This document shows positions 39,217 to 60,863 of a stretch of 64,000 bases of DNA, piece by piece. A program made the position numbers and the translations under genes. Origin of the DNA: Patescibacteria group bacterium (lineage in GTDB: Bacteria > Patescibacteriota > Minisyncoccia > UBA6257 > Brennerbacteraceae); contig JBFMGR010000001.1 in assembly GCA_040753135.1 (NCBI GenBank), forward strand, positions 59,252-123,251. Direction: 5' to 3'. The stretch's first letter is position 1; each line of letters begins with the position of its first letter. The notes below the pieces were generated by a model, which was given only the letters and a program-made list of their open reading frames with translations, was not told the DNA's origin and did no database searches.

Positions 39217-40218
39217 GTGTTTGAAAACAAATTAAAAACCAAATTAGTTTCAGTTTCTGACCCTCAAGCAAAAAGCTTATTTTTTAAAAAGGCGTTTTTA
39301 ATCGCTTTAAACTTGGGCTTGAGCGTTGCGGTGGCCGGGCTGATTCTGCGTTTAACCAATCCGGCTAACAGCTATACTCGGCTGGACCAGATTTTAATGT
39401 TAGCAACAGCTTCTGTCTGGCTTTGCGTTTATTTAATCTCTGGATTAGTTTTTTCTTTTGGCGCGGTTTTTGGCTTGAGTTTAGTTGGTTTTGGTTTGGT
39501 TTTTGCCCCGTTTTTTCGGTTTGTTGATTTAACGGTTTTCGGAATTTTGCTTGGTTTGAGCTTGGTTTTTGCCTGGTTATCCAGGCAAGCAGGAAAAAAG
39601 GTGATTAATAATTCATTAAAGTTAAGTCCGATTCAGATAATTGCGGTCAGCCGGGGCGGGTTAATCTTTGTTTTAAGCTTGCTGATTTCTTTGAGTTTAT
39701 GGTCAGTCAGGTTTGGCAGCTTATCAGCTCCGGACAAAATTGATTTTATTGGTCTGTTCGGCGGTTTTTATCCGAGTTTTGGCGAAGAGAAAACCGTTGA
39801 TGAGTTAACCGAGGGTTTGACGGAAAAACAATTAAGCAAGATTTTGGAGACAATGCTGCCTTCTGGCTTGCCTGGTCCCCAAGCCGAGATTATTAAACAG
39901 GGGGTTAAGCAAGAAACTAAAACCGGCATTTTAAAGGAAATCAGCAGTTTGGTTGGTCGGGAGATTTCGCCTCAAGAAACAATCTCTCAAGCGATTGAGT
40001 CTTCATTTAATTTTTATTACCAAAATTTGCCTGAATCAACCCGGAGAATAATTGATTTTGTGATTCTGGCCGCGCTTTTTGCTTTTTGGTTTGGCATTTT
40101 TCAGTTATTCAGCTTTGTTCTTTACGCGGTTTTTTGGCTAATTTTAGAAGTTTTACTGTTGTTAAAAGTGATTAAAGTGAGTATTATTACCGTAGAAAAA
40201 GAAGTTCTGACTATATGA
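39217..40218 (+). CDS. Hypothetical polytopic membrane protein.
   Basis: Multiple hydrophobic segments; no recognisable motif. Confidence 0.35.
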   Translation: MFENKLKTKLVSVSDPQAKSLFFKKAFLIALNLGLSVAVAGLILRLTNPANSYTRLDQILMLATASVWLCVYLISGLVFSFGAVFGLSLVGFGLVFAPFFRFVDLTVFGILLGLSLVFAWLSRQAGKKVINNSLKLSPIQIIAVSRGGLIFVLSLLISLSLWSVRFGSLSAPDKIDFIGLFGGFYPSFGEEKTVDELTEGLTEKQLSKILETMLPSGLPGPQAEIIKQGVKQETKTGILKEISSLVGREISPQETISQAIESSFNFYYQNLPESTRRIIDFVILAALFAFWFGIFQLFSFVLYAVFWLILEVLLLLKVIKVSIITVEKEVLTI

Positions 40219-50510: not shown

Positions 50511-50909
50511 ATGGCATTTTATTCAGCAGAAAAAGATAACGAACTTTTCATAATAGGAGAAGTTAATTGGGGGAATTTTCAACGAATGAGGGCTGAAGCC
50601 GGCTATCTATTAGATGAGCTCCAAAACTTGATAGAAACTTTAAATTTAGAGCCAGAAAGAAAATCGGCTTTGACTTTTCAAGCCGGACAGATCTCTGGCA
50701 TTCTTTTAGTTTTGGGCGCTGAAGATTTGGATATAAAAGAAAATGAGCTTAAAAAATCGATGTTAAAGTCTGCCCGGTTGCTTAAAGATCAGTTTAGAAT
50801 AGCAAAAACAAATCTGCCGGAATCAGAAGCTGTTTTGTCCTGGCTAGACAAAGTGGTTAATTTTGTCAGTCGGCTTGATGACTTTATTGCGGAAAATTCC
50901 GGCGGTTAA
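50511..50909 (+). CDS. Hypothetical protein.
   Basis: 132-aa ORF, no motif. Confidence 0.3.
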   Translation: MAFYSAEKDNELFIIGEVNWGNFQRMRAEAGYLLDELQNLIETLNLEPERKSALTFQAGQISGILLVLGAEDLDIKENELKKSMLKSARLLKDQFRIAKTNLPESEAVLSWLDKVVNFVSRLDDFIAENSGG

Positions 50910-51433: not shown

Positions 51434-51504
51434 TGCGGGGTCGTCTAAAGGTAGGACGTTTGGTTCTGGCCCAAAAAATTGGGGTTCGAATCCCTGCCCC
51501 GCAG
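51434..51504 (+). tRNA. tRNA-Gln (anticodon CTG), with the U1:A72 pair typical of tRNA-Gln.
   Basis: Acceptor TGCGGGG/CCCCGCA, anticodon loop TTCTGGC, T-loop TTCGAAT. Confidence 0.65.
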
Positions 51505-51595
51505 CACTTCGGCAAGCTTAGCGTAGGTCTCTTCGATTCGCCCAGCGCAAGTGTCATAACTCGCCAGGAGATAATCTTGAATCAAGGATTAAATT

Positions 51596-51630
51596 GACTA
51601 AATTTTTTGAATGTGCTATTCTAATAAATA
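51596..51630 (+). promoter_or_regulatory. Sigma-70-like promoter ttgact-N17-tattct upstream of the HTH gene.
   Basis: −35 and −10 hexamers with a 17-nt spacing, read directly. Confidence 0.4.
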
Positions 51631-51652
51631 GAATTTTAGTTACTTATTATTT

Positions 51653-52738
51653 ATGATTGACCGATTAGTTGAGCAAATTCTTCAGCCGCTGCCGAAAAGA
51701 ACTCAAGAGATTATTTCTAGACGTTTGGGTTTGGAGACTGGCTTTGCTGAAACCCTAGAGGCGATTGGTCAAGATCTAACCATTACTCGGGAAAGAGTCA
51801 GGCAGTTAGAATCAGTCGGGTTTAAGCAAATAAATAATACTTTGGCTCAATCGTCAATTCTTGATGATTTTTTTCAGGCAGTTGAAAATCACTTATCCCA
51901 TTTTCAGGGCCTTCGGGAAGAAAAACGGCTGTTAAAAGAGCTGTCTTATATTTTCAATGACGAAGAGGCCCAGCCATTAAAAATCCGCTTTCTTCTTTTT
52001 TTAGACAAGCGGCTGTTTCATTTTGCCGAAGCGGAAGACCATTCTGCTTTTTGGGTAACAGACAAAAAATTAGCCCAAAAAGTAATCTCTCTTGTTAAAA
52101 AACTCAATCGGGCAATCAGGAGCAAAAGCGCCCCCTTGCCAGCAGAAACCTTTGAGGGTTTTGTCAAGGGAATGGCTAAGGGTTTGGGCTTAGACAAGGT
52201 TCCGGTTGGCATTTTAATGTCTTATGTCAGCTTAAGCCCAAAGATTGCTTTCAGTCCGTTTGGTTATATTGGCACAGAACAGCATCTGGAGATTGCTCCG
52301 CAAAATGTCGGCGAAAAAGCTTATTTGATTTTGAAGTCTGCCGGCCGGCCGATGCATTTCCGCGACTTAACTGAAGCAATGAATCAGCATGCCCAGAATG
52401 CCAGCGGTTTTCACCCGGTTTGGCAAAAGCAGGTTGAAGCCCAGACGGTCCATAATCAGCTGATTAAAGCGGGGAACTTTGTTTTGATTGGTCGGGGGAC
52501 TTATGCATTGAGCGAATGGGGATACAAACCCGGAACAGTCAAACAAGTTTTAGTTGGGATTTTAAGAAAAGCCAAACAGCCGATTTCTTTTGATTTAATT
52601 GTCAAAGAAGTAAAAAAAATCCGTTTGGTTAAAGAATCAACCGTTTTCATTAATCTTCAGGATAAAAAATTATTTAAAAAATTCCCGGGCAAGAAATATG
52701 CCCTTAAGCAGGCAAAACTTAAAGCGGAAGAGGCCTGA
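51653..52738 (+). CDS. DNA-binding protein with an N-terminal sigma-70 region-4-like HTH and a C-terminal HARE-HTH-like domain.
   Basis: N-terminus LPKRTQEIISRRLGLETGFAETLEAIGQDLTITRERVRQLE is sigma region 4. C-terminus NFVLIGRGTYALSEWGY matches the HARE-HTH motif. Confidence 0.5.
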   Translation: MIDRLVEQILQPLPKRTQEIISRRLGLETGFAETLEAIGQDLTITRERVRQLESVGFKQINNTLAQSSILDDFFQAVENHLSHFQGLREEKRLLKELSYIFNDEEAQPLKIRFLLFLDKRLFHFAEAEDHSAFWVTDKKLAQKVISLVKKLNRAIRSKSAPLPAETFEGFVKGMAKGLGLDKVPVGILMSYVSLSPKIAFSPFGYIGTEQHLEIAPQNVGEKAYLILKSAGRPMHFRDLTEAMNQHAQNASGFHPVWQKQVEAQTVHNQLIKAGNFVLIGRGTYALSEWGYKPGTVKQVLVGILRKAKQPISFDLIVKEVKKIRLVKESTVFINLQDKKLFKKFPGKKYALKQAKLKAEEA

Positions 52739-52815
52739 GTCGACAAAGCTTTGTTCAGCCAGACAAAAAACAGGGATTTGCTTAGAAACTTTTTTCGTTT
52801 TAAAATAAAGCAAGT

Positions 52816-54186
52816 ATGGATTCTTTGCTGAATTTTTTGTTTCCCAATGAGTTCTTGCGCGGCTTGGCCGAAGATTTAATTTTGGTTTTATGGGGCGCTT
52901 GGGTTGATTGGTGGTGGCTGGTCTTGCCTCCGGTTTTGTTTTTTGTTGCCCTGGATTACTGGAAGAATTATAAGAAGGAGCAGTTTGTCAGCAAAATTGA
53001 ATGGGTGGTTTTGGAGCTTCGGGTCCCCCAAGATATTGAGGCAACGCCGAAAACAATGGAGCAGGTTTTTAGTTCTTTGGCCGCCACTGCCAGCTCGCCC
53101 GGCTGGAAAGATGAAGCCAAAGAAGGCAAAGTGCCTTTGTGGCTTTCTTTTGAGATGCTCGGGCAGCATAAGCAGGGCGTGTCTTTTTTTGTCAGAATAC
53201 CAAAAGAGTTCCAGCGCTTGGTTGAAACCCAGATTTATTCCCAGTATCCCCAGGCAGAGATTAGCCTGGCAGAAGATTATATTAAGAGATTCAGTTCTTT
53301 GCCGGATAATTATTATGATATCTGGGGGGCCGAGCTGGCTTTAGCCGAAGAAGCAGTTTATCCGATTAAAACTTACCCCTTTTTTGAGGAAGTAAAAGAA
53401 GAGAAACGGTTAGACCCATTAGCGCCATTTCTGGAGATCTTGAGCCATTTAAAAGAGGGAGAAGAGATCTGGCTTCAGATTGTTTTGCGCGGCTTGACCA
53501 AAGACCAGTCAAAGGCTTTAAAAGAAGAGTCTAAAAAATCAATCAATAAACTGATTGGTAAAAAAGAAGAAGAAAAAAAGCCGGGGACTTTTGGTTTTGC
53601 TAAAGGATTGGTTGATGAAACCAAGAATGTGGCGAAAAAATTTGTTGCTGATATTGGCCCAGCTTTGGGCGCTCCGGCTGGCGGCGAAGAAAAAAAAGAG
53701 GAGAAAAAAGAAGACCGGCCGTCCTTAATTCAGTTTTTGACTCCGGGTGAAAAGGAAAAAGTGGAAAAAGCAGAAGAAAAGCTTTCTAAAACAGTTTTTG
53801 AAACAGAGATCAGGGTTGTTTATGTGGCGCCAAAATCTATTTTTGATAAAAAATCCCATAGCAGCGCGGTTAAATCTTATTTCCGAACCTTTAACTTAGC
53901 TCATTTGAACGGCTTTAAAGAAAAAGACGGACCAAAGCATCCATTTTATTTAAAATGGTTTTTTGGCAAAAATCTTGAGTTTCAAGATATTAATAAATTT
54001 TTTAAAGCTTGCGCCGGAAGGGAGATTGGCGGTCCGGAAACAAAAGATATTTTGAAAAAATTAATTCTCAATTCAGAAGAATTAGCTACTCTTTATCATT
54101 TTCCTTTAACTAAAGTTGAGGCGCCGCGGCTCTACCGATTGCAGACGAAAAAATACGAACCGCCGCCAAATCTGCCGGTGATTTAA
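52816..54186 (+). CDS. Hypothetical membrane-anchored protein (456 aa) with a K/E-rich central linker.
   Basis: Trp-rich N-terminal transmembrane region; low-complexity KEEKK tract; no known motif. Confidence 0.35.
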   Translation: MDSLLNFLFPNEFLRGLAEDLILVLWGAWVDWWWLVLPPVLFFVALDYWKNYKKEQFVSKIEWVVLELRVPQDIEATPKTMEQVFSSLAATASSPGWKDEAKEGKVPLWLSFEMLGQHKQGVSFFVRIPKEFQRLVETQIYSQYPQAEISLAEDYIKRFSSLPDNYYDIWGAELALAEEAVYPIKTYPFFEEVKEEKRLDPLAPFLEILSHLKEGEEIWLQIVLRGLTKDQSKALKEESKKSINKLIGKKEEEKKPGTFGFAKGLVDETKNVAKKFVADIGPALGAPAGGEEKKEEKKEDRPSLIQFLTPGEKEKVEKAEEKLSKTVFETEIRVVYVAPKSIFDKKSHSSAVKSYFRTFNLAHLNGFKEKDGPKHPFYLKWFFGKNLEFQDINKFFKACAGREIGGPETKDILKKLILNSEELATLYHFPLTKVEAPRLYRLQTKKYEPPPNLPVI

Positions 54187-54228
54187 GTGAATTATGAATT
54201 ATGAATAGTGAATCTAAAATAATGAATT

Positions 54229-55857
54229 ATGGATAATGGGACAGACAGAATTTTAATTGGCGAGGCCGAGTTCCGGAATAAGCGGACGCCGTTTGGAATT
54301 AAGATTGACGACTTAAGGCGGCATATTTATGCGGTTGGCCTGACCGGCGTGGGCAAGACGACTTTTTTGGAAACAATGGCGCTTTACCATATTCAGCACA
54401 ATAAGGGCGTGGGGATTATTGACCCACACGGAGAGTTTTCTGATCGGCTGATGGATTATATTCCCAAAGAAAGAATTGATGATGTGGTTTATATCAATCC
54501 ATCAGACACCAATTATCCACTGGCTTTTAATGTAATGGAGAGCGTTGATTTTGAGCAGAGGCACTTAGTTGCTTCGAGTTTGTTGTCAGTGTTTAAAAAA
54601 ATCTGGCCTGATGTTTGGTCAGCCCGGATGGAGTATATCTTAAACAATACTTTTTTAGCGCTTTTAGAGTATCCGGACTCAACCCTTTTGGGCATCAGCC
54701 GGATGCTGGCAGATAAGGATTATCGGAAGATGATTGTTTCCAGGCTGATGGATCCGGTGGTCAAAGCCTTCTGGACCCAGGAATTTGCCCGCTACCATGA
54801 CCGGTTTCAAGTTGAAGCAATTGCGCCTTTACAGAATAAAGTTGGCCAATTCACTGCTAATCCTTTAGTGAGAAATATTATCGGCCAGAAAAAGACTAAG
54901 CTTAATTTAAGAGAGATAATTGATACCAGAAAAATTTTGATTGTCCGTCTGCCGGTAGGTTTGGTCGGCGAATCCAATGCCTCGCTTTTAGGCGGTTTGT
55001 TGGTGACCAAACTTCAGCAAGCCGCGATGTCCAGGATTGATATTCCGGAGAACCAGCGGGAAGATTTTTGTTTAGTAATTGACGAGTTTCAGAACTTTGC
55101 CACCGAATCATTTATTAAGATTTTGTCAGAGGCAAGAAAATACCATCTGAATTTGGTGATTGGCCATCAGTATTTAGACCAGATTCCTGAAGAAATCTTG
55201 GCCGCAATTTTGGGCAATGTCGGCACTTATGTTGCTTTTCGGATCGGCCCGGTTGACGCGGAAAAATTAGAACCGCAGTTTTTGCCCCAGATCAACGTTC
55301 ACGAGTTAGTTAATCTGCCGAACCATTATTTTTACATCAAGATGATGATTGACGGCGTGACTTCGCCGCCGTTTTTAGGCACAACTTTACTGCCGCCGCC
55401 TTTGCCGGTTCAAAGTTATAAAGAAGAGATTATCAAGCTCTCTCAATTAAAATACTCTACCCAGAAAGGCTTTATTGAGCAGGAGATTCAAAAATGGCTT
55501 GAGCCGGTTGAGCCGGGAAAAGAAGAAAAATTAGAGCAAGAGCCGGAAGTTTGGGAGCCGGTAATGCTCCATGAAGCAGTTTGTTCCTCCTGCGGCAAAG
55601 ATATTCGCTTGCCTTTTGAGCCGGATCCGAATCGGCCGGTTTATTGCAAAAAATGCCTGAAAAAAGTTAAAAAGCCAGAAGCAGAAAAAAAGCCAGCTAA
55701 AGCCAAAGCGAAAAAGCCGGTTTCGGCAAAGCCAAAAACAGAACCAAAAGCAGAAGAAAAAAAGTCCGGTTTAGGCGAGATGCTGAAAAAAATTATCAGT
55801 TCGCAGAAACCAGAAAAAGAAACAGATTCTCTTGAATCCCAAGAACAAGAATCTTAA
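54229..55857 (+). CDS. VirD4/TraD/TrwB-like P-loop ATPase (type IV secretion system DNA-binding-domain-like) with a C-terminal CxxC…CxxC zinc ribbon and a Lys-rich tail. It has no N-terminal transmembrane segment.
   Basis: Walker A GLTGVGKTT, Walker B LVIDEFQNF, HQYLDQI; C-terminus CSSCGK…RPVYCKKC followed by a KPAKAKAKKP tail. Confidence 0.55.
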   Translation: MDNGTDRILIGEAEFRNKRTPFGIKIDDLRRHIYAVGLTGVGKTTFLETMALYHIQHNKGVGIIDPHGEFSDRLMDYIPKERIDDVVYINPSDTNYPLAFNVMESVDFEQRHLVASSLLSVFKKIWPDVWSARMEYILNNTFLALLEYPDSTLLGISRMLADKDYRKMIVSRLMDPVVKAFWTQEFARYHDRFQVEAIAPLQNKVGQFTANPLVRNIIGQKKTKLNLREIIDTRKILIVRLPVGLVGESNASLLGGLLVTKLQQAAMSRIDIPENQREDFCLVIDEFQNFATESFIKILSEARKYHLNLVIGHQYLDQIPEEILAAILGNVGTYVAFRIGPVDAEKLEPQFLPQINVHELVNLPNHYFYIKMMIDGVTSPPFLGTTLLPPPLPVQSYKEEIIKLSQLKYSTQKGFIEQEIQKWLEPVEPGKEEKLEQEPEVWEPVMLHEAVCSSCGKDIRLPFEPDPNRPVYCKKCLKKVKKPEAEKKPAKAKAKKPVSAKPKTEPKAEEKKSGLGEMLKKIISSQKPEKETDSLESQEQES

Positions 55858-59489: not shown

Positions 59490-60863
59490 ATGGCGAAAAA
59501 GTTTTTTGATATTAAAAAAAGCAAAAAATCAAAGGATTTAAGAGTAAAAGAAGTAAAGCCAAAGCGCGGCAAGGAAGTTGAGATAGAGCCTTCAGGAGAT
59601 AAAACCGGGCCGGAGATGAAATTAGAAGAAAGATATAATGAGTTTTTAAAAAGCTTATCTTCTAAAACCGAACCGGAAACAGAGATCCAGCCGGAGAAGA
59701 AGAAAAAAAGAGCAAAACCAAAAGATCGGAGCCGGGTTTTAAAATCAGTTTCTTGGCTGATCGGCTTAATCGGCTTGGGACTTTTGATTTATTTTGGCAG
59801 CGGTTTTATCAGCCAGGTTGAGATTGTTTTGGAGATCCAAAAGGAAACTCAAGAAAAAACCTTTTCCGCTTTGTTTGAAAAAGAGCCTGAGCAAACCGGA
59901 TTTTTAAATGGCCAGTTTGTTTTACCGCTCCATACTTTTGAAAAGTCTTTTTCTTACTCTAAAGATTATCCGGCCACGGGCGAAGGGGAAGTTAGCGGCT
60001 ATAGCCGGGGCAAAATTATAATTTATAATGAAGCTACCCAATCAGCCCAGATTTTAGTTGCTCGAACTAGGTTTGAATCTCCTGACGGCAAGATTTTCCG
60101 GATTCAGGAAAGAGTTTCTGTTCCCGGATATGACCGGGTTGGGCCGGGCATACTAGAGGTTGAGGTGGTCGCAGACCAGCCGGGGCCGGAATATAATCTT
60201 GAGTCAACTCGGTTTACCATTCCCGGGTTTGCCGGCAGTTCCAAGTTTGAAAAAATTTATGCGATTTCAAAAGAAAAGTTTTATGGCGGCGCTTCCGGGT
60301 TAGCCAAGGTGGTTACTGAAGAAGATGTCAAAACTGCAAAAGAAAAAATTACCCAGTTTGCTTATGATACCGCCAGAGAAGAGGTAATTAAAGAAATCCC
60401 GGAAAACTTAAAGCTTTTGGACAAAGCAGTCCAGTTTAAATTGGGTGAAATCGCTGTTTCTTCTGCTGGTGAAGCAGAAATAACCCGAGCAACAATTGAA
60501 GGCAGGCTGTCAATCTTGGTTTTTGATGAAACCGAACTTAAGGAGTTAATTGCTGAAAAAATGGTTGAGGACCAACAGATAAAATCTGATCTGACTTTGG
60601 CCAATTATCAGATTTTTTATGAAAATCCTGAAATAGATTTAGAAACCCAAACAATGAAGCTGGCAGTCAGGGTCAGGCGGGATATCCAGGCATTAGTCGA
60701 TGCTTTAGAGTTTAAGCAAAAAATAGCCGGCAAGAGCATTGAGGAGCTGAAAAAGGAGCTCTTAAAGCTTGAGGGAGTTCAGAAAATTCAGGTTTCGGTC
60801 TGGCCGTTCTGGATGAAAAAAGCGCCGGAGAATATTGACGCAATTAAAATCCGTGTAGAATAA
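59490..60863 (+). CDS. Hypothetical membrane-anchored protein (457 aa).
   Basis: Basic N-terminus, one transmembrane segment, large extracytoplasmic domain; no motif. Confidence 0.35.
   Translation: MAKKFFDIKKSKKSKDLRVKEVKPKRGKEVEIEPSGDKTGPEMKLEERYNEFLKSLSSKTEPETEIQPEKKKKRAKPKDRSRVLKSVSWLIGLIGLGLLIYFGSGFISQVEIVLEIQKETQEKTFSALFEKEPEQTGFLNGQFVLPLHTFEKSFSYSKDYPATGEGEVSGYSRGKIIIYNEATQSAQILVARTRFESPDGKIFRIQERVSVPGYDRVGPGILEVEVVADQPGPEYNLESTRFTIPGFAGSSKFEKIYAISKEKFYGGASGLAKVVTEEDVKTAKEKITQFAYDTAREEVIKEIPENLKLLDKAVQFKLGEIAVSSAGEAEITRATIEGRLSILVFDETELKELIAEKMVEDQQIKSDLTLANYQIFYENPEIDLETQTMKLAVRVRRDIQALVDALEFKQKIAGKSIEELKKELLKLEGVQKIQVSVWPFWMKKAPENIDAIKIRVE

What the first reader, a model, noticed from the sequence alone, without database searches (positions are those of the whole stretch)
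51596..55857. Three-gene module: sigma region-4/HARE-HTH DNA-binding protein, membrane protein, and VirD4/TraD-like ATPase with a zinc ribbon
Immediately downstream of tRNA-Gln, behind a clear ttgact-N17-tattct promoter, lie three co-oriented genes.
First, a 361-aa protein whose N-terminus is a sigma-70 region-4 HTH and whose C-terminus carries a HARE-HTH-like motif (GRGTYALSEWGY). That domain is typical of the RNA polymerase delta subunit and of restriction or DNA-uptake-associated proteins.
Second, a 456-aa N-terminally membrane-anchored protein with a K/E-rich linker and no known domain.
Third, a 542-aa P-loop ATPase with VirD4/TraD/TrwB-like Walker A and B and an HQYLDQ motif. It lacks the usual N-terminal transmembrane anchor of coupling proteins and ends in a CSSCGK…RPVYCKKC zinc ribbon plus a poly-Lys/Ala/Pro tail.
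Together these resemble a minimal DNA-translocation or secretion-like module of unknown function, possibly involved in DNA uptake or symbiont–host interaction, rather than a canonical conjugation system; no relaxase, VirB4 or pilin gene is present.
Basis: partly seen in the sequence, partly recalled or inferred. Interest (0 to 1): 0.65.

Follow-up and report, generated by a model that had tools for sequence, protein, structure and literature searches.

The report
Split type-IV coupling ATPase operon
Three co-oriented genes in this ultra-small (Patescibacteria) bacterium encode a DNA-binding protein plus a conjugation-type "coupling" motor ATPase that has been split into a membrane-anchor gene and a motor gene; the trio is conserved across the phylum, sits among housekeeping genes without any conjugation machinery, and its job is still unknown.

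Summary

- **Genes 2 and 3 are one protein elsewhere.** In Bacillaceae and Embleya conjugative plasmids, DUF8128 is fused to the same ATPase (hhalign 99%, E 9e-18). So genes 2+3 are one coupling protein split in two.
- **The order is conserved.** A-B-C holds in 74 of 80 Patescibacteria species loci while the flanking genes vary. No relaxase, VirB4 or pilin lies alongside.
- **Published Tn-seq separates the parts.** In the Saccharibacterium Southlakia, the gene-1 orthologue is essential. The adjacent 921-aa ATPase, probably a B-C fusion, is dispensable.

Best reading: a domesticated, relaxase-less coupling ATPase with its own DNA-binding partner. The substrate and the conduit (the Patescibacteria T4SS or ComEC) are unproven. 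This is a new variant of a known kind.

The parts
51434..51505 (+). tRNA-Gln(ctg). This is the upstream boundary of the module in this genome. It is context only and is not conserved next to the module in other genomes.
   Evidence: ARAGORN; Rfam tRNA, 56.9 bits. In other genomes secD-secF lies upstream instead.
51594..51622 (+). Sigma-70-like promoter candidate: TTGACT-17-TATTCT with a TG extension, 31 bp upstream of the A start codon.
   Evidence: Sequence and pattern scan. The site count in the region equals the shuffle expectation, so function is inferred only from position.
51653..52738 (+). Gene A, 361 aa. It has a sigma-70 region-4 domain followed by winged-helix domains, one of them HARE-HTH. 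It is a Patescibacteria-wide family.
   Evidence: Pfam and NCBIfam; 3,731 homologues, nearly all with PF04545+PF05066; alignment A3. The Southlakia orthologue SEML1_0294 is essential.
51665..51880 (+). A, aa 5-76: a complete sigma region 4 (4.1 + 4.2 helix-turn-helix) of the primary-sigma type. The TRERVRQ recognition-helix residues are invariant in the family.
   Evidence: PDB profile search matches SigA/RpoD region 4 at E 3e-18. R46 E47 R48 R50 Q51 are invariant and T45 is in at least 90% of sequences. The alignment is gapless across the region 4.1-4.2 HTH; a single gap falls after it.
52313..52519 (+). A, aa 221-289: HARE-HTH winged helix, with motif GRGTYALSEWGY at aa 280-291.
   Evidence: Pfam PF05066, E 6e-9. 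H267 N268 G280 R281 G282 Y284 W289 G290 are invariant. The match to the RNAP delta model TIGR04567 is 32.3 bits, below its cut-off of 42.
52816..54186 (+). Gene B, 456 aa: a DUF8128 (PF26449) protein that corresponds to the N-terminal half of a split coupling protein.
   Evidence: Precomputed PF26449 on the identical NCBI protein and on homologues. AlphaFold2 model with pLDDT 88 and pTM 0.82. Fused to the ATPase in Niallia, Bacillus and Embleya plasmids.
52873..52962 (+). B, about aa 20-49: the single N-terminal hydrophobic (membrane-anchor) helix. The bulk of the protein is predicted to be cytoplasmic.
   Evidence: Long helix at aa 12-60 in the model. Family hydropathy median is 1.94; the C-side flank is more positive (+1.2 against -0.4).
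52993..54105 (+). B, aa 60-430: an alpha/beta domain with a VirB4 N-terminal-domain-like fold and no P-loop. It contains a variable K/E-rich insert at about aa 250-300.
54076..54177 (+). B, aa 421-454: the most conserved motif of the family (EELATxYHxP...PPxxLP), partly in a low-confidence tail. In the fused plasmid proteins it sits at the junction with the ATPase.
   Evidence: E422 L423 A424 T425 H428 P430 P450 L453 P454 are invariant. It aligns to Niallia aa ~285-313, immediately before the ATPase part, which starts at ~324.
54229..55857 (+). Gene C, 542 aa: a soluble TrwB/VirD4-type P-loop motor with a C-terminal zinc ribbon and a charged tail.
54301..55263 (+). C, aa 25-345: the nucleotide-binding domain with an inserted all-alpha region. 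Walker A is G37-T44 (nt 54337-54360), Walker B is 281-286 (nt 55069-55086), and HQYLDQ is 313-318.
   Evidence: hhalign aligns C 25-321 to TrwB 118-393 (94.8%, E 5e-8). Helices 108-232 lie between the Walker motifs. Invariant residues are listed.
55570..55668 (+). C, aa 448-480: the CxxC-x17-CxxC treble-clef zinc ribbon (C452, C455, C473, C476).
   Evidence: PF23477, E 6e-13, and TIGR04272, E 1e-13. It is present in 49 of 49 homologues. It is absent from the Niallia fusion protein, the only plasmid relative translated here.
55669..55854 (+). C, aa 481-542: a disordered K/A/P/E-rich tail. The tail is variable across the family, apart from a short conserved amphipathic motif near the end (GLGEMLKKII here; VNLEELKKxLEESL in relatives).
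   Evidence: pLDDT below 50. Tail composition and motif across 49 homologues.

Best explanation
The three genes form a Patescibacteria-wide, chromosomally fixed operon.

**B and C together are one type IV coupling protein split into two polypeptides.** B is the membrane-anchored N-terminal half. It is a DUF8128 domain whose fold resembles the VirB4 N-terminal domain, the part that seats VirB4 on the membrane platform of a type IV secretion system. C is the TrwB/VirD4-type, presumably hexameric, motor half. In this phylum C has gained a zinc ribbon and a charged tail.

**A sits where conjugative transfer operons keep their DNA-binding accessory protein**, as in trwA-trwB of plasmid R388. A has a sigma-70 region 4 with intact -35-type recognition residues, followed by HARE and other winged helices.

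**Proposed mechanism (inferred).** B tethers the C ring to the cytoplasmic face of the membrane. A binds DNA and presents it to the motor. ATP hydrolysis then moves the nucleic acid to or from an envelope conduit encoded elsewhere. The most likely conduit is the monoderm-type T4SS that most Patescibacteria carry; the alternative is the ComEC uptake channel.

**No relaxase is present**, so this is not conjugation of a mobile element. It is a domesticated, conjugation-derived motor.

**A has a further role.** It is essential in Southlakia while the motor is not, so it probably also acts as an RNA-polymerase- or promoter-associated factor.

**Shown:** homology, fold, the split/fusion relationship, synteny and distribution. 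**Inferred:** the B-C contact, A feeding C, the substrate, the direction of transport and the conduit.
For: **B+C equals one protein**
- The Niallia plasmid protein WP_338473401 (867 aa) matches the DUF8128 profile over aa 38-313 (hhalign 99.0%, E 9e-18, 272 columns). It matches C from aa ~324 (tblastn 29% identity, E 3e-31). The split point is therefore exactly the B-stop/C-start junction.
- Embleya WP_331738717 (812 aa) matches C at 100% probability, E 7e-49, over aa 397-784. It matches DUF8128 over aa 92-221, weakly but colinearly (E 2e-4).
- Eighteen Bacillaceae plasmids carry the fused form.
- These fusions lie in Tcp/VirB4-type transfer clusters next to 'replication-relaxation' genes.
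- Southlakia SEML1_0293 is 921 aa with the TrwB domain at 402-719, and it lies next to the A orthologue.

**Fold**
- hhalign of C to TrwB gives 94.8%.

**Operon**
- A-B-C order holds in 74 of 80 species loci and in L001, L003 and L086, with variable flanks.
- A-B stay adjacent even where C is elsewhere (L006, L011, L078, L087).

**Not a mobile element**
- The context is housekeeping genes.
- B has no match in 72,556 plasmids.
- Published counts put VirD4-like homologues in 2,918 of 3,035 Patescibacteria genomes, with only 148 of the 5,713 homologues near virB4 (PMC12102498).

**A binds DNA like sigma region 4**
- The profile matches SigA/RpoD region 4 at E 3e-18.
- The RER-RQ residues are invariant.

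**Operon analogy**
- R388 has a small gene directly upstream of trwB and then the relaxase. That this gene is trwA is from my own knowledge.

**Precedent for a VirD4-like motor acting in DNA import**
- CedD in Sulfolobus (PMC11823120).
Against: - No direct evidence exists for a B-C or A-C contact. Complex prediction was not possible with these tools.
- In Southlakia the T4SS genes are essential but SEML1_0293 is not (NE at all three time points). Its reads fall only about 4-fold, from 5817 to 1372. It therefore cannot be required for the essential T4SS function.
- A second T4CP-like protein in Southlakia, SEML1_0142, is essential and could be the real T4SS partner.
- VirD4-like genes occur in more Patescibacteria genomes (2,918) than VirB4 does (2,417).
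- The essentiality of A, set against dispensable B-C, shows that A is not merely an adaptor for the motor.
- The extreme conservation of C (at least 53% identity among the 120 best hits) is atypical of coupling proteins and hints at a more housekeeping-like role.
- The DUF8128-VirB4 link is structural only. There is no sequence signal against TrwK or TrsD.
- That SEML1_0293 is a B-C fusion is inferred from its length and domain coordinates, not from its sequence.
Confidence: 0.45

Rival explanations
1. There are two functionally separate units that are merely co-transcribed. A is an essential Patescibacteria-specific RNA-polymerase accessory or transcription factor (a sigma-region-4 mimic plus delta-like HARE-HTH), or it is the repressor of the downstream genes. 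B-C is an unrelated, dispensable membrane ATPase.
For: - The A orthologue is essential while the adjacent ATPase is non-essential in Southlakia.
- Both of A's recognisable domains are RNAP-associated modules. Region 4 matches at E 3e-18. The HARE-HTH hits the RNAP delta model at 32 bits.
- In L087, A-B lies among rpoC, nusA and infB.
- An essential repressor of a toxic but non-essential operon would give the same Tn-seq pattern.
Against: - A-B adjacency survives wholesale changes of the flanking genes in 77 of the 80 species loci (A-B-C in 74) and across several candidate phyla, including Southlakia. It persists even when C has moved away. That is hard to explain without a functional link.
- A lacks sigma region 2 and the acidic tail of the delta subunit.
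- The match to the delta model is below its cut-off.
Confidence: 0.25
2. B-C is a competence motor. It is the cytoplasmic ATPase that pulls DNA through ComEC, a functional substitute for the missing ComFA and analogous to archaeal CedD. A would act as a DNA-handling partner.
For: - ComEC, as two ORFs, lies two to five genes downstream of C in about 16 of 80 loci.
- In Southlakia, dprA is four genes from the module, no ComFA is annotated, and comEC, dprA and SEML1_0293 are all non-essential.
- The best NCBIfam equivalog-type hit for C is the DNA-import ATPase CedD (E 2e-12, far below its cut-off).
- CedD is required for DNA import (PMC11823120).
- ComFA also carries a zinc finger (my own knowledge).
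Against: - The proximity to ComEC is loose and is seen in a minority of loci. It may just reflect conserved Paceibacteria gene order.
- The closest relatives of B-C are export-type coupling proteins of conjugative plasmids.
- The CedD score is 46 bits against a cut-off of 600.
- A's essentiality is not explained.
Confidence: 0.15
3. It is an anti-phage defence ATPase of the HerA, DptH or MADS type, together with its partners.
For: - PADLOC finds mad8 at E 4e-16 and several HerA models at about 1e-8.
- The NCBIfam and PADLOC MzaA hits are to A's sigma region 4 only.
Against: - The module is near-universal, single-copy and strongly conserved across a phylum with ~1-Mb genomes. That is the opposite of the patchy, fast-evolving pattern of defence islands.
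- The neighbours are housekeeping genes.
- No nuclease, Sir2, methylase or Dnd partners are present.
- The MzaA hit covers only the generic sigma region 4.
Confidence: 0.04
4. It is a chromosome-segregation or cell-division DNA pump that replaces FtsK.
For: - In this window the module lies just downstream of ftsE-ftsX.
- C is very highly conserved.
Against: - Southlakia has a genuine and essential FtsK (SEML1_0096), while the module's ATPase is dispensable.
- The ftsEX adjacency is not conserved; secDF is the common upstream neighbour.
- By sequence C is TrwB-like, not FtsK-like.
Confidence: 0.03

Closest known systems
Long coupling proteins of monoderm Tcp/VirB4-type conjugative plasmids (Niallia WP_338473401, 867 aa; B. 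subtilis WP_144625398, 913 aa; Embleya WP_331738717, 812 aa). All are annotated only as 'DUF87 domain-containing' or 'type IV secretory system conjugative DNA transfer family' proteins.
   Same: They have the same two modules in the same order: a DUF8128-like N-domain followed by the same ATPase. The junction coincides with the B/C gene boundary.
   Different: - The plasmid proteins are single polypeptides, whereas here the protein is split into two genes.
- The plasmid proteins sit next to a replication-relaxation gene and TcpC/D/E and VirB4-like transfer genes on plasmids. Here the genes are chromosomal, with no transfer genes.
- The window's version adds a zinc ribbon and is preceded by the sigma4/HARE protein.
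- The Niallia protein shows no obvious N-terminal hydrophobic helix or zinc ribbon.
TrwB (R388), VirD4 and DotL type IV coupling proteins
   Same: They share the nucleotide-binding domain with its inserted all-alpha region, the Walker A and B motifs, and the TraG-D_C region. They also share the arrangement of a DNA-binding accessory gene directly upstream, as in trwA-trwB.
   Different: - TrwB carries its own two-helix membrane domain and no DUF8128/VirB4-like N-domain.
- TrwB works with a relaxase and an adjacent or co-resident T4SS.
- TrwB has no zinc ribbon.
- Identity is only about 16-23%.
VirB4 (TrwK of R388; the T. pseudethanolicus VirB4 C-terminal domain) and the split TrsD + VirB4 pair of pGO1 and of the Patescibacteria T4SS
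   Different: At sequence level C aligns with TrwB across 261 columns but with TrwK only at the P-loop. DUF8128 shows no sequence signal against TrwK or TrsD. The module is not in a T4SS cluster.
SEML1_0294 / SEML1_0293 of 'Ca. Southlakia epibionticum' ML1 (Wang et al. 2023, PMC10633639)
   Same: SEML1_0294 has Sigma70_r4 + HARE-HTH in the same positions as A. It lies directly upstream, on the same strand, of a TrwB_AAD_bind ATPase. Both proteins are flagged as core and Patescibacteria-enriched families.
   Different: The ATPase is 921 aa, with the TrwB_AAD_bind match starting at aa ~400 (P-loop domain from aa 361). This is a probable B-C fusion, not verified by sequence here. Tn-seq phenotypes are known for Southlakia (A essential, ATPase non-essential) but not for this organism. 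The paper does not discuss the pair.
CedD, the VirD4-like ATPase of the crenarchaeal Ced DNA-import system (PMC11823120)
   Same: It is a VirD4-like FtsK-HerA ATPase that is chromosomal and not tied to a relaxase. Some orthologues lack a membrane domain. It is C's best NCBIfam equivalog-type hit.
   Different: The score is 46.5 bits against a family cut-off of 600, and only the N-terminal P-loop region matches. CedD is archaeal and works with CedA, CedA1/A2 and CedB, none of which is present here.

Membership tests
Type IV coupling protein (VirD4/TrwB family) | P-loop nucleotide-binding domain of the VirD4/TrwB clade, with conserved Walker A and B motifs | tested here: met
Type IV coupling protein (VirD4/TrwB family) | All-alpha domain inserted between Walker A and Walker B | tested here: met
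   The model has a helical block at aa 108-232 between the Walker motifs. The hhalign alignment runs through the corresponding part of TrwB, residues 118-393. No explicit superposition was made.
Type IV coupling protein (VirD4/TrwB family) | N-terminal transmembrane anchor on the same polypeptide | tested here: not met
   C has no hydrophobic segment; the family's maximum hydropathy is 1.56. The anchor is on the separate protein B.
Type IV coupling protein (VirD4/TrwB family) | Genetic association with a relaxase and a mating-pair-formation T4SS | tested here: not met
   No relaxase-like or VirB4-like gene family recurs among the neighbours in the 80 species loci, and the identified neighbours in the window are housekeeping genes. 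Published work puts only 148 of 5,713 Patescibacteria homologues near virB4.
Type IV coupling protein (VirD4/TrwB family) | Recruits substrate DNA or protein to a T4SS channel | not testable with these tools
   This needs genetics or biochemistry.
DUF8128 (PF26449) | Match to the Pfam model | tested here: met
   Precomputed PF26449.1 sits on P0001, which is 100% identical to B, and on most homologues. The local Pfam copy lacks this model, so hmmscan returned nothing.
VirB4 ATPase | VirB4-type N-terminal domain | tested here: met
VirB4 ATPase | C-terminal ATPase domain belonging to the VirB4 sequence family, on the same polypeptide as the N-domain | tested here: not met
HerA helicase (HerA-NurA or HerA defence systems) | HerA-type ATPase with a NurA, Sir2 or DUF4297 partner | tested here: not met
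   DUF87 matches (38.8 bits), but the HerA NCBIfam models score 12-17 bits against a cut-off of 800. No nuclease or Sir2 neighbour was seen.
Sigma-70 family sigma factor | Region 2 (core binding and -10 recognition) in addition to region 4 | tested here: not met
   Only region 4 is found. The sigma models match only their last ~70 positions. A is therefore not a sigma factor.
RNA polymerase delta subunit (RpoE) | N-terminal HARE-HTH domain followed by a long acidic C-terminal tail | tested here: not met
   TIGR04567 scores 32.3 bits, below its cut-off of 42. The HARE domain is internal (aa 221-289) and is followed by another winged-helix-like segment, not an acidic tail.
Ced DNA-import system (CedD) | Full-length match to the CedD equivalog, with Ced partners present | tested here: not met
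   NF053655 scores 46.5 bits against a cut-off of 600, and the match covers aa 8-92 only. No Ced genes are present.

The most novel reading that the evidence does not exclude
Patescibacteria have converted an ancestral monoderm conjugation coupling protein into a phylum-wide housekeeping nucleic-acid motor. The motor keeps a VirB4-like N-domain, which makes it a possible 'missing link' between VirB4 and VirD4. It is loaded by an essential sigma-region-4/HARE-HTH protein that recognises -35-like DNA. Together they would physically couple DNA (or transcribing RNA polymerase) to the membrane, for scavenging or exchanging nucleic acids with the host cell. Such a route would bear on the open question of how these nucleotide-auxotrophic bacteria obtain nucleotides, given that ComEC is dispensable.
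Probability: 0.15. Interest if true: 0.85.

Novelty: new variant of a known kind. Interest (0 to 1): 0.6.

Why it matters
**What is already in the literature.** Patescibacteria make up a large share of bacterial diversity and have ~1-Mb genomes, so anything universally retained is likely to be important. The literature records thousands of 'orphan' VirD4-like genes in the phylum, away from virB4, and says only that exaptation 'cannot be ruled out' (PMC12102498). The one Tn-seq study lists the two Southlakia genes without comment (PMC10633639).

**What this analysis adds.**
1. The orphan ATPase is half of a split coupling protein. Its other half is the uncharacterised DUF8128 family.
2. DUF8128 has a VirB4-N-domain-like fold and is fused to the same ATPase in Bacillaceae and actinobacterial conjugative plasmids. 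This bears on how VirB4 and VirD4 diverged.
3. The pair is locked to a sigma-region-4/HARE-HTH protein that is essential in a cultivable member of the phylum.

**Why it is actionable.** These points give concrete experiments in Southlakia on an unexplained, conserved piece of Patescibacteria biology. They also assign a first structural and functional context to DUF8128.

Tried and rejected
- **Promoter significance.** The site exists, but the number of promoter-like sites equals the shuffle expectation. It is not used as evidence.
- **Window's own contig.** Looking up the window's contig through its own ATPase returned nothing on record.
- **afdb50 fold library.** It was unavailable.
- **PDB sequence searches.** B and C as single sequences or profiles gave nothing for B, and only TrwB, DotL and HerA for C.
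- **Sequence link from DUF8128 to VirB4 or TrsD.** hhalign gave no signal. The VirB4-N-domain link rests on structure alone.
- **DUF8128 in other long plasmid proteins.** hhalign against the N-terminal parts of the Herpetosiphon and Rhodococcus proteins gave no signal. Only the Niallia/Bacillus proteins (strong) and the Embleya protein (weak) match.
- **A as a relative of the plasmid 'replication-relaxation' proteins.** No similarity was found.
- **B on plasmids.** tblastn found no match.
- **FtsK replacement.** Rejected, because Southlakia has an essential bona fide FtsK.
- **Defence system.** Rejected on distribution and context.
- **Accession BR000038 for R388.** It is not in the collection; NC_028464 was used instead.
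- **One literature search was wasted.** With min_terms=2 it returned generic sigma-factor papers.
- **Other literature searches.** 'DUF8128' returns zero papers. In a four-term search (any two terms required) for HARE-HTH and three Patescibacteria terms, none of the 10 papers listed contained HARE-HTH.

Full report
**1. Checking the observation**

The window is a Patescibacteria (CPR) metagenome-assembled genome. The products of all three genes are 100% identical to NCBI 'Patescibacteria group bacterium' proteins from a 130,869-bp contig.

- Gene layout: A 51653-52738 (361 aa), B 52816-54186 (456 aa), C 54229-55857 (542 aa). All are on the + strand, separated by 77 and 42 bp.
- tRNA-Gln lies at 51434-51505.
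- The TTGACT-17-TATTCT site is at 51594-51622. Promoter-like sites in the region are no more frequent than in shuffles (13 found, 13.4 expected), so the site carries no statistical weight.
- A: Pfam confirms Sigma70_r4 (aa 10-60) and HARE-HTH (aa 221-289).
- C: Pfam confirms TrwB_AAD_bind, DUF87, a weak TraG-D_C hit and the zf_Tbcl_2 / CxxC-x17-CxxC zinc ribbon (aa 448-480).
- One correction: B is not domainless. B itself (P0001, 100% identical) and its homologues carry PF26449/DUF8128, a model missing from the local Pfam copy.

**2. Context**

The window is core chromosome. Pfam or direct reading identifies DnaB, CysS, CorA, DnaK, RmuC, GroEL, PrfB, FtsE and FtsX upstream, and MnmA and AlaS downstream. 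GC content is uniform. The window holds no paralogue of A, B or C, and every neighbour that was identified is a housekeeping gene.

**3. Family sizes and conservation**

- **B:** 4,038 cluster representatives at 50% identity match the profile at E of 1e-3 or better. The top 150 are all stand-alone proteins of 320-564 aa.
- **C:** more than 8,000 homologues. The best 120 are still at least 53% identical to the window protein, and more than 100 alignment columns are invariant in a sample of 49.
- **A:** 3,731 homologues, nearly all with the same two Pfam domains.
- **Taxonomy:** every organism name attached to these proteins is Patescibacteria, Parcubacteria or one of their candidate phyla.

**4. 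Synteny**

A scan of one genome per GTDB species with the DUF8128 alignment found at least 583 species with the gene.

- In the 80 loci kept, tblastn finds the order A-B-C in 74.
- The exceptions are A-B without C (L006, L011, L078), B-C without A (L080) and B alone (L020, L076).
- Contig look-ups give the same picture. L001, L003 and L086 carry A-B-C. L087 has A-B followed by nusA. L002 and L088 are cut by contig ends.
- Clustering the neighbours shows that the flanks vary. SecD-SecF lies directly upstream in about 54 of 80 loci. Downstream come EF-P, TrmD, MnmA, AlaS or PGK.
- This window has ftsEX and tRNA-Gln upstream instead.
- The trio is therefore kept together while its surroundings change.

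**5. What B is**

- An AlphaFold2 model built from 64 homologues is confident (pLDDT 88, pTM 0.82). It shows a long N-terminal helix (aa 12-60) and then an alpha/beta domain (aa 60-430) with a poorly ordered K/E-rich insert.
- Hydropathy and flanking charges indicate one membrane helix with the bulk of the protein in the cytoplasm. 63 of 64 family members have no Walker A motif.
- Foldseek also ranks TrwK first (E 3e-4, probability 1.0).
- No other P-loop ATPase is hit. In particular, the VirB4 C-terminal-domain-only structure, TrwB, HerA and FtsK are all absent. The match must therefore be to the VirB4 N-terminal domain.
- The resemblance is structural only. hhalign of the B profile against TrwK or against pGO1 TrsD finds nothing.

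**6. What C is**

- The model (pLDDT 84) shows a RecA-like core with a helical insert between the Walker motifs, two or three C-terminal helices, the zinc ribbon and a disordered tail.
- By sequence C is on the coupling-protein side. hhalign against TrwB gives 94.8%, E 5e-8, over 261 columns. Against TrwK it matches only the P-loop. The PDB profile search ranks TrwB and DotL above HerA.
- The zinc ribbon is present in 49 of 49 homologues. The tail is variable and K/E-rich, with a short conserved amphipathic motif near its end.

**7. B and C are one protein elsewhere**

tblastn of C against 72,556 plasmids finds 464 records. Several hits lie inside much longer proteins.

- **Niallia WP_338473401 (867 aa):**
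  - Residues 38-313 match the DUF8128 profile, including its conserved C-terminal motif (hhalign 99.0%, E 9e-18, 272 columns).
  - Residues ~324-704 match C. The junction therefore coincides with the B-stop/C-start boundary.
- **Embleya WP_331738717 (812 aa):** it matches C at 100% probability, E 7e-49 (aa 397-784). It matches DUF8128 weakly but colinearly (aa 92-221, E 2e-4).
- **Spread:** the Niallia-type N-domain occurs in 18 Bacillaceae plasmids, always under a 'DUF87' gene.
- **Context:** these genes sit in transfer clusters next to a 'replication-relaxation family' gene, TcpC/D/E-like genes, a PrgI-family gene, a cell-wall hydrolase and a VirB4-like ATPase. A Herpetosiphon plasmid has a comparable cluster.
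- **B alone:** it has no plasmid match.

The window's B+C is therefore the split form of a monoderm coupling-protein class whose N-terminal domain is DUF8128.

**8. What A is**

- The first 76 residues are a complete primary-sigma-type region 4. The PDB profile search gives E 3e-18 to SigA/RpoD region 4.
- The family's invariant residues R46 E47 R48 R50 Q51 correspond to the sigma70 'RERIRQ' recognition helix. That these residues contact the -35 element is established knowledge, not tested here.
- Region 2 is absent, so A is not a sigma factor.
- The HARE-HTH (aa 221-289) is the most conserved part of the protein and is followed by another conserved winged-helix-like segment.
- For the Southlakia orthologue, Wang et al. 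assign one tri-helical and three winged-helix ECOD domains.
- A is unrelated to the plasmid replication-relaxation proteins.

**9. Literature**

- 'DUF8128' occurs in no paper in the library. In a four-term search (any two terms required) for HARE-HTH and three Patescibacteria terms, none of the 10 papers listed contained HARE-HTH.
- Quinonero-Coronel et al. 2025 (PMC12102498):
  - They report 5,713 VirD4-like homologues in 2,918 of 3,035 Patescibacteria genomes, with only 148 near virB4. VirB4 is present in 2,417 genomes.
  - They remark that exaptation 'cannot be ruled out'.
  - They also note that the Patescibacteria T4SS has a separate TrsD protein, remotely similar to the VirB4 N-terminus, next to VirB4. 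This is a parallel to B-C.
- Wang et al. 2023 (PMC10633639), Tables S1 and S2:
  - SEML1_0294 has Sigma70_r4 at 27-72 and HARE-HTH at 225-283. It is essential at all three time points, with 1-2 insertions recovered.
  - The adjacent same-strand gene SEML1_0293 is 921 aa, with TrwB_AAD_bind at 402-719. It is non-essential, although its normalised reads fall from 5817 to 2940 to 1372.
  - Both genes are flagged 'core family' and 'Patescibacteria enriched'.
  - Southlakia also has a genuine, essential FtsK and a second, essential T4CP-like protein, SEML1_0142.
  - No ComFA is annotated. comEC and dprA are non-essential, and dprA lies four genes from the module.
- CedD of Sulfolobus shows that a VirD4-like ATPase can serve DNA import (PMC11823120).

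**10. Interpretation**

- *Shown.* A phylum-wide operon encodes (i) a sigma4/HARE multi-winged-helix protein and (ii) a coupling protein split into a membrane-anchored DUF8128 half with a VirB4-N-domain-like fold and a TrwB-type motor half with a lineage-specific zinc ribbon. The operon sits outside any transfer cluster and has no relaxase.
- *Inferred.* B tethers a C hexamer to the membrane. A is the DNA-binding partner, in the position that TrwA-type accessory proteins occupy upstream of coupling-protein genes (for the R388 gene order; the identity of trwA is from my own knowledge). The motor hands nucleic acid to or from a conduit encoded elsewhere.
- *Conduit.* The Patescibacteria T4SS is the most parsimonious candidate, because B-C's nearest relatives serve monoderm T4SSs. 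Three facts argue against a strict T4SS dependence: the motor is dispensable while the T4SS is essential, a second essential T4CP-like protein exists, and VirD4-like genes are more widespread than VirB4. ComEC-linked uptake is the main alternative, supported only by loose neighbourhood evidence.
- *A.* Its essentiality means it has an additional or different role: an RNAP/promoter-associated factor, or a repressor of the operon.
- *Confidence.* About 0.9 for the architecture and split-protein claim. About 0.45 for the overall mechanistic statement.

**11. Novelty and score**

The ATPase family, the Pfam DUF and the Tn-seq phenotypes are each on record separately. Three things appear to be undescribed: the recognition that DUF8128 plus the orphan ATPase form a split coupling protein, the VirB4-like fold of DUF8128, and the conserved coupling to the sigma4/HARE protein. 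This is a new variant of a known kind. Interest is 0.6: it is a conserved, partly essential and experimentally tractable unknown in a major bacterial lineage, but it is built from recognisable parts.

Noticed in passing
Loci L003-L083 (for example L004, L019, L069); not in the window: secD-secF lie directly upstream of gene A, co-oriented, in about 54 of 80 species loci, often with secA further upstream. This may be inherited gene order, or a hint of a link between the module and the membrane protein-export machinery.
   Followed up: partly
Loci such as L037 10211-12509, L040, L051, L064, L068, L072, L079: A ComEC/Rec2 competence channel, encoded as two adjacent ORFs (a membrane 'Competence' part and a separate metallo-beta-lactamase part), lies two to five genes downstream of gene C in about 16 of 80 loci. 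In Southlakia, dprA is four genes from the module.
   Followed up: partly
window 55774-55803 (C aa 516-525) and the tails of 49 homologues: The tail after the zinc ribbon is otherwise variable. It contains a short conserved amphipathic motif (VNLEELKKxLEESL; GLGEMLKKII in the window) that looks like a docking peptide for an unknown partner.
   Followed up: no
window 54076-54177 (B aa 421-454): The most invariant stretch of DUF8128 (EELATxYHxP...PPxxLP) lies partly in a low-confidence tail. It is also conserved at the domain junction of the fused Niallia protein. It is a candidate interface with the ATPase.
   Followed up: partly
Southlakia epibionticum SEML1_0142 (literature; PMC10633639 Tables S1 and S2): This is a second T4CP-like protein: 1,019 aa, with a 'TraM recognition domain' and a P-loop at aa 381-800. 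It also has a ~380-aa unassigned N-terminus. It is essential and Patescibacteria-enriched. It may be a paralogue with the same N-domain + motor architecture and could be the real T4SS partner.
   Followed up: no
L086 8170-8397: In one lineage a 75-aa ORF with no Pfam family is inserted between genes A and B.
   Followed up: no
L087 7001-9352: Here A and B are adjacent but C is absent from the locus. The pair sits between a XerC-like integrase and nusA-tig-clpP-infB, with rpoC nearby.
   Followed up: no
window 39217-40218 (+) and L076 3231-4256: A ~335-aa multi-pass membrane protein with no Pfam family follows dnaK directly in the window. A similarly placed 341-aa membrane protein follows dnaK in L076, but the two are only marginally similar (BLASTP E 0.03).
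   Followed up: partly
window 50511-50909 (+) and 59490-60863 (+): A 132-aa ORF between ftsX and the module has no Pfam family. The 457-aa ORF after alaS has only a sub-threshold YqfD hit.
   Followed up: no
L089 6983-8170 (Sulfitobacter plasmid NZ_CP081110.1): This is the closest non-Patescibacteria relative of C by identity (37.5% over aa 6-376, E 6e-79). It is a stand-alone 395-aa ATPase-only protein in an alphaproteobacterial plasmid, flanked by transposases and with no DUF8128 partner annotated.
   Followed up: partly
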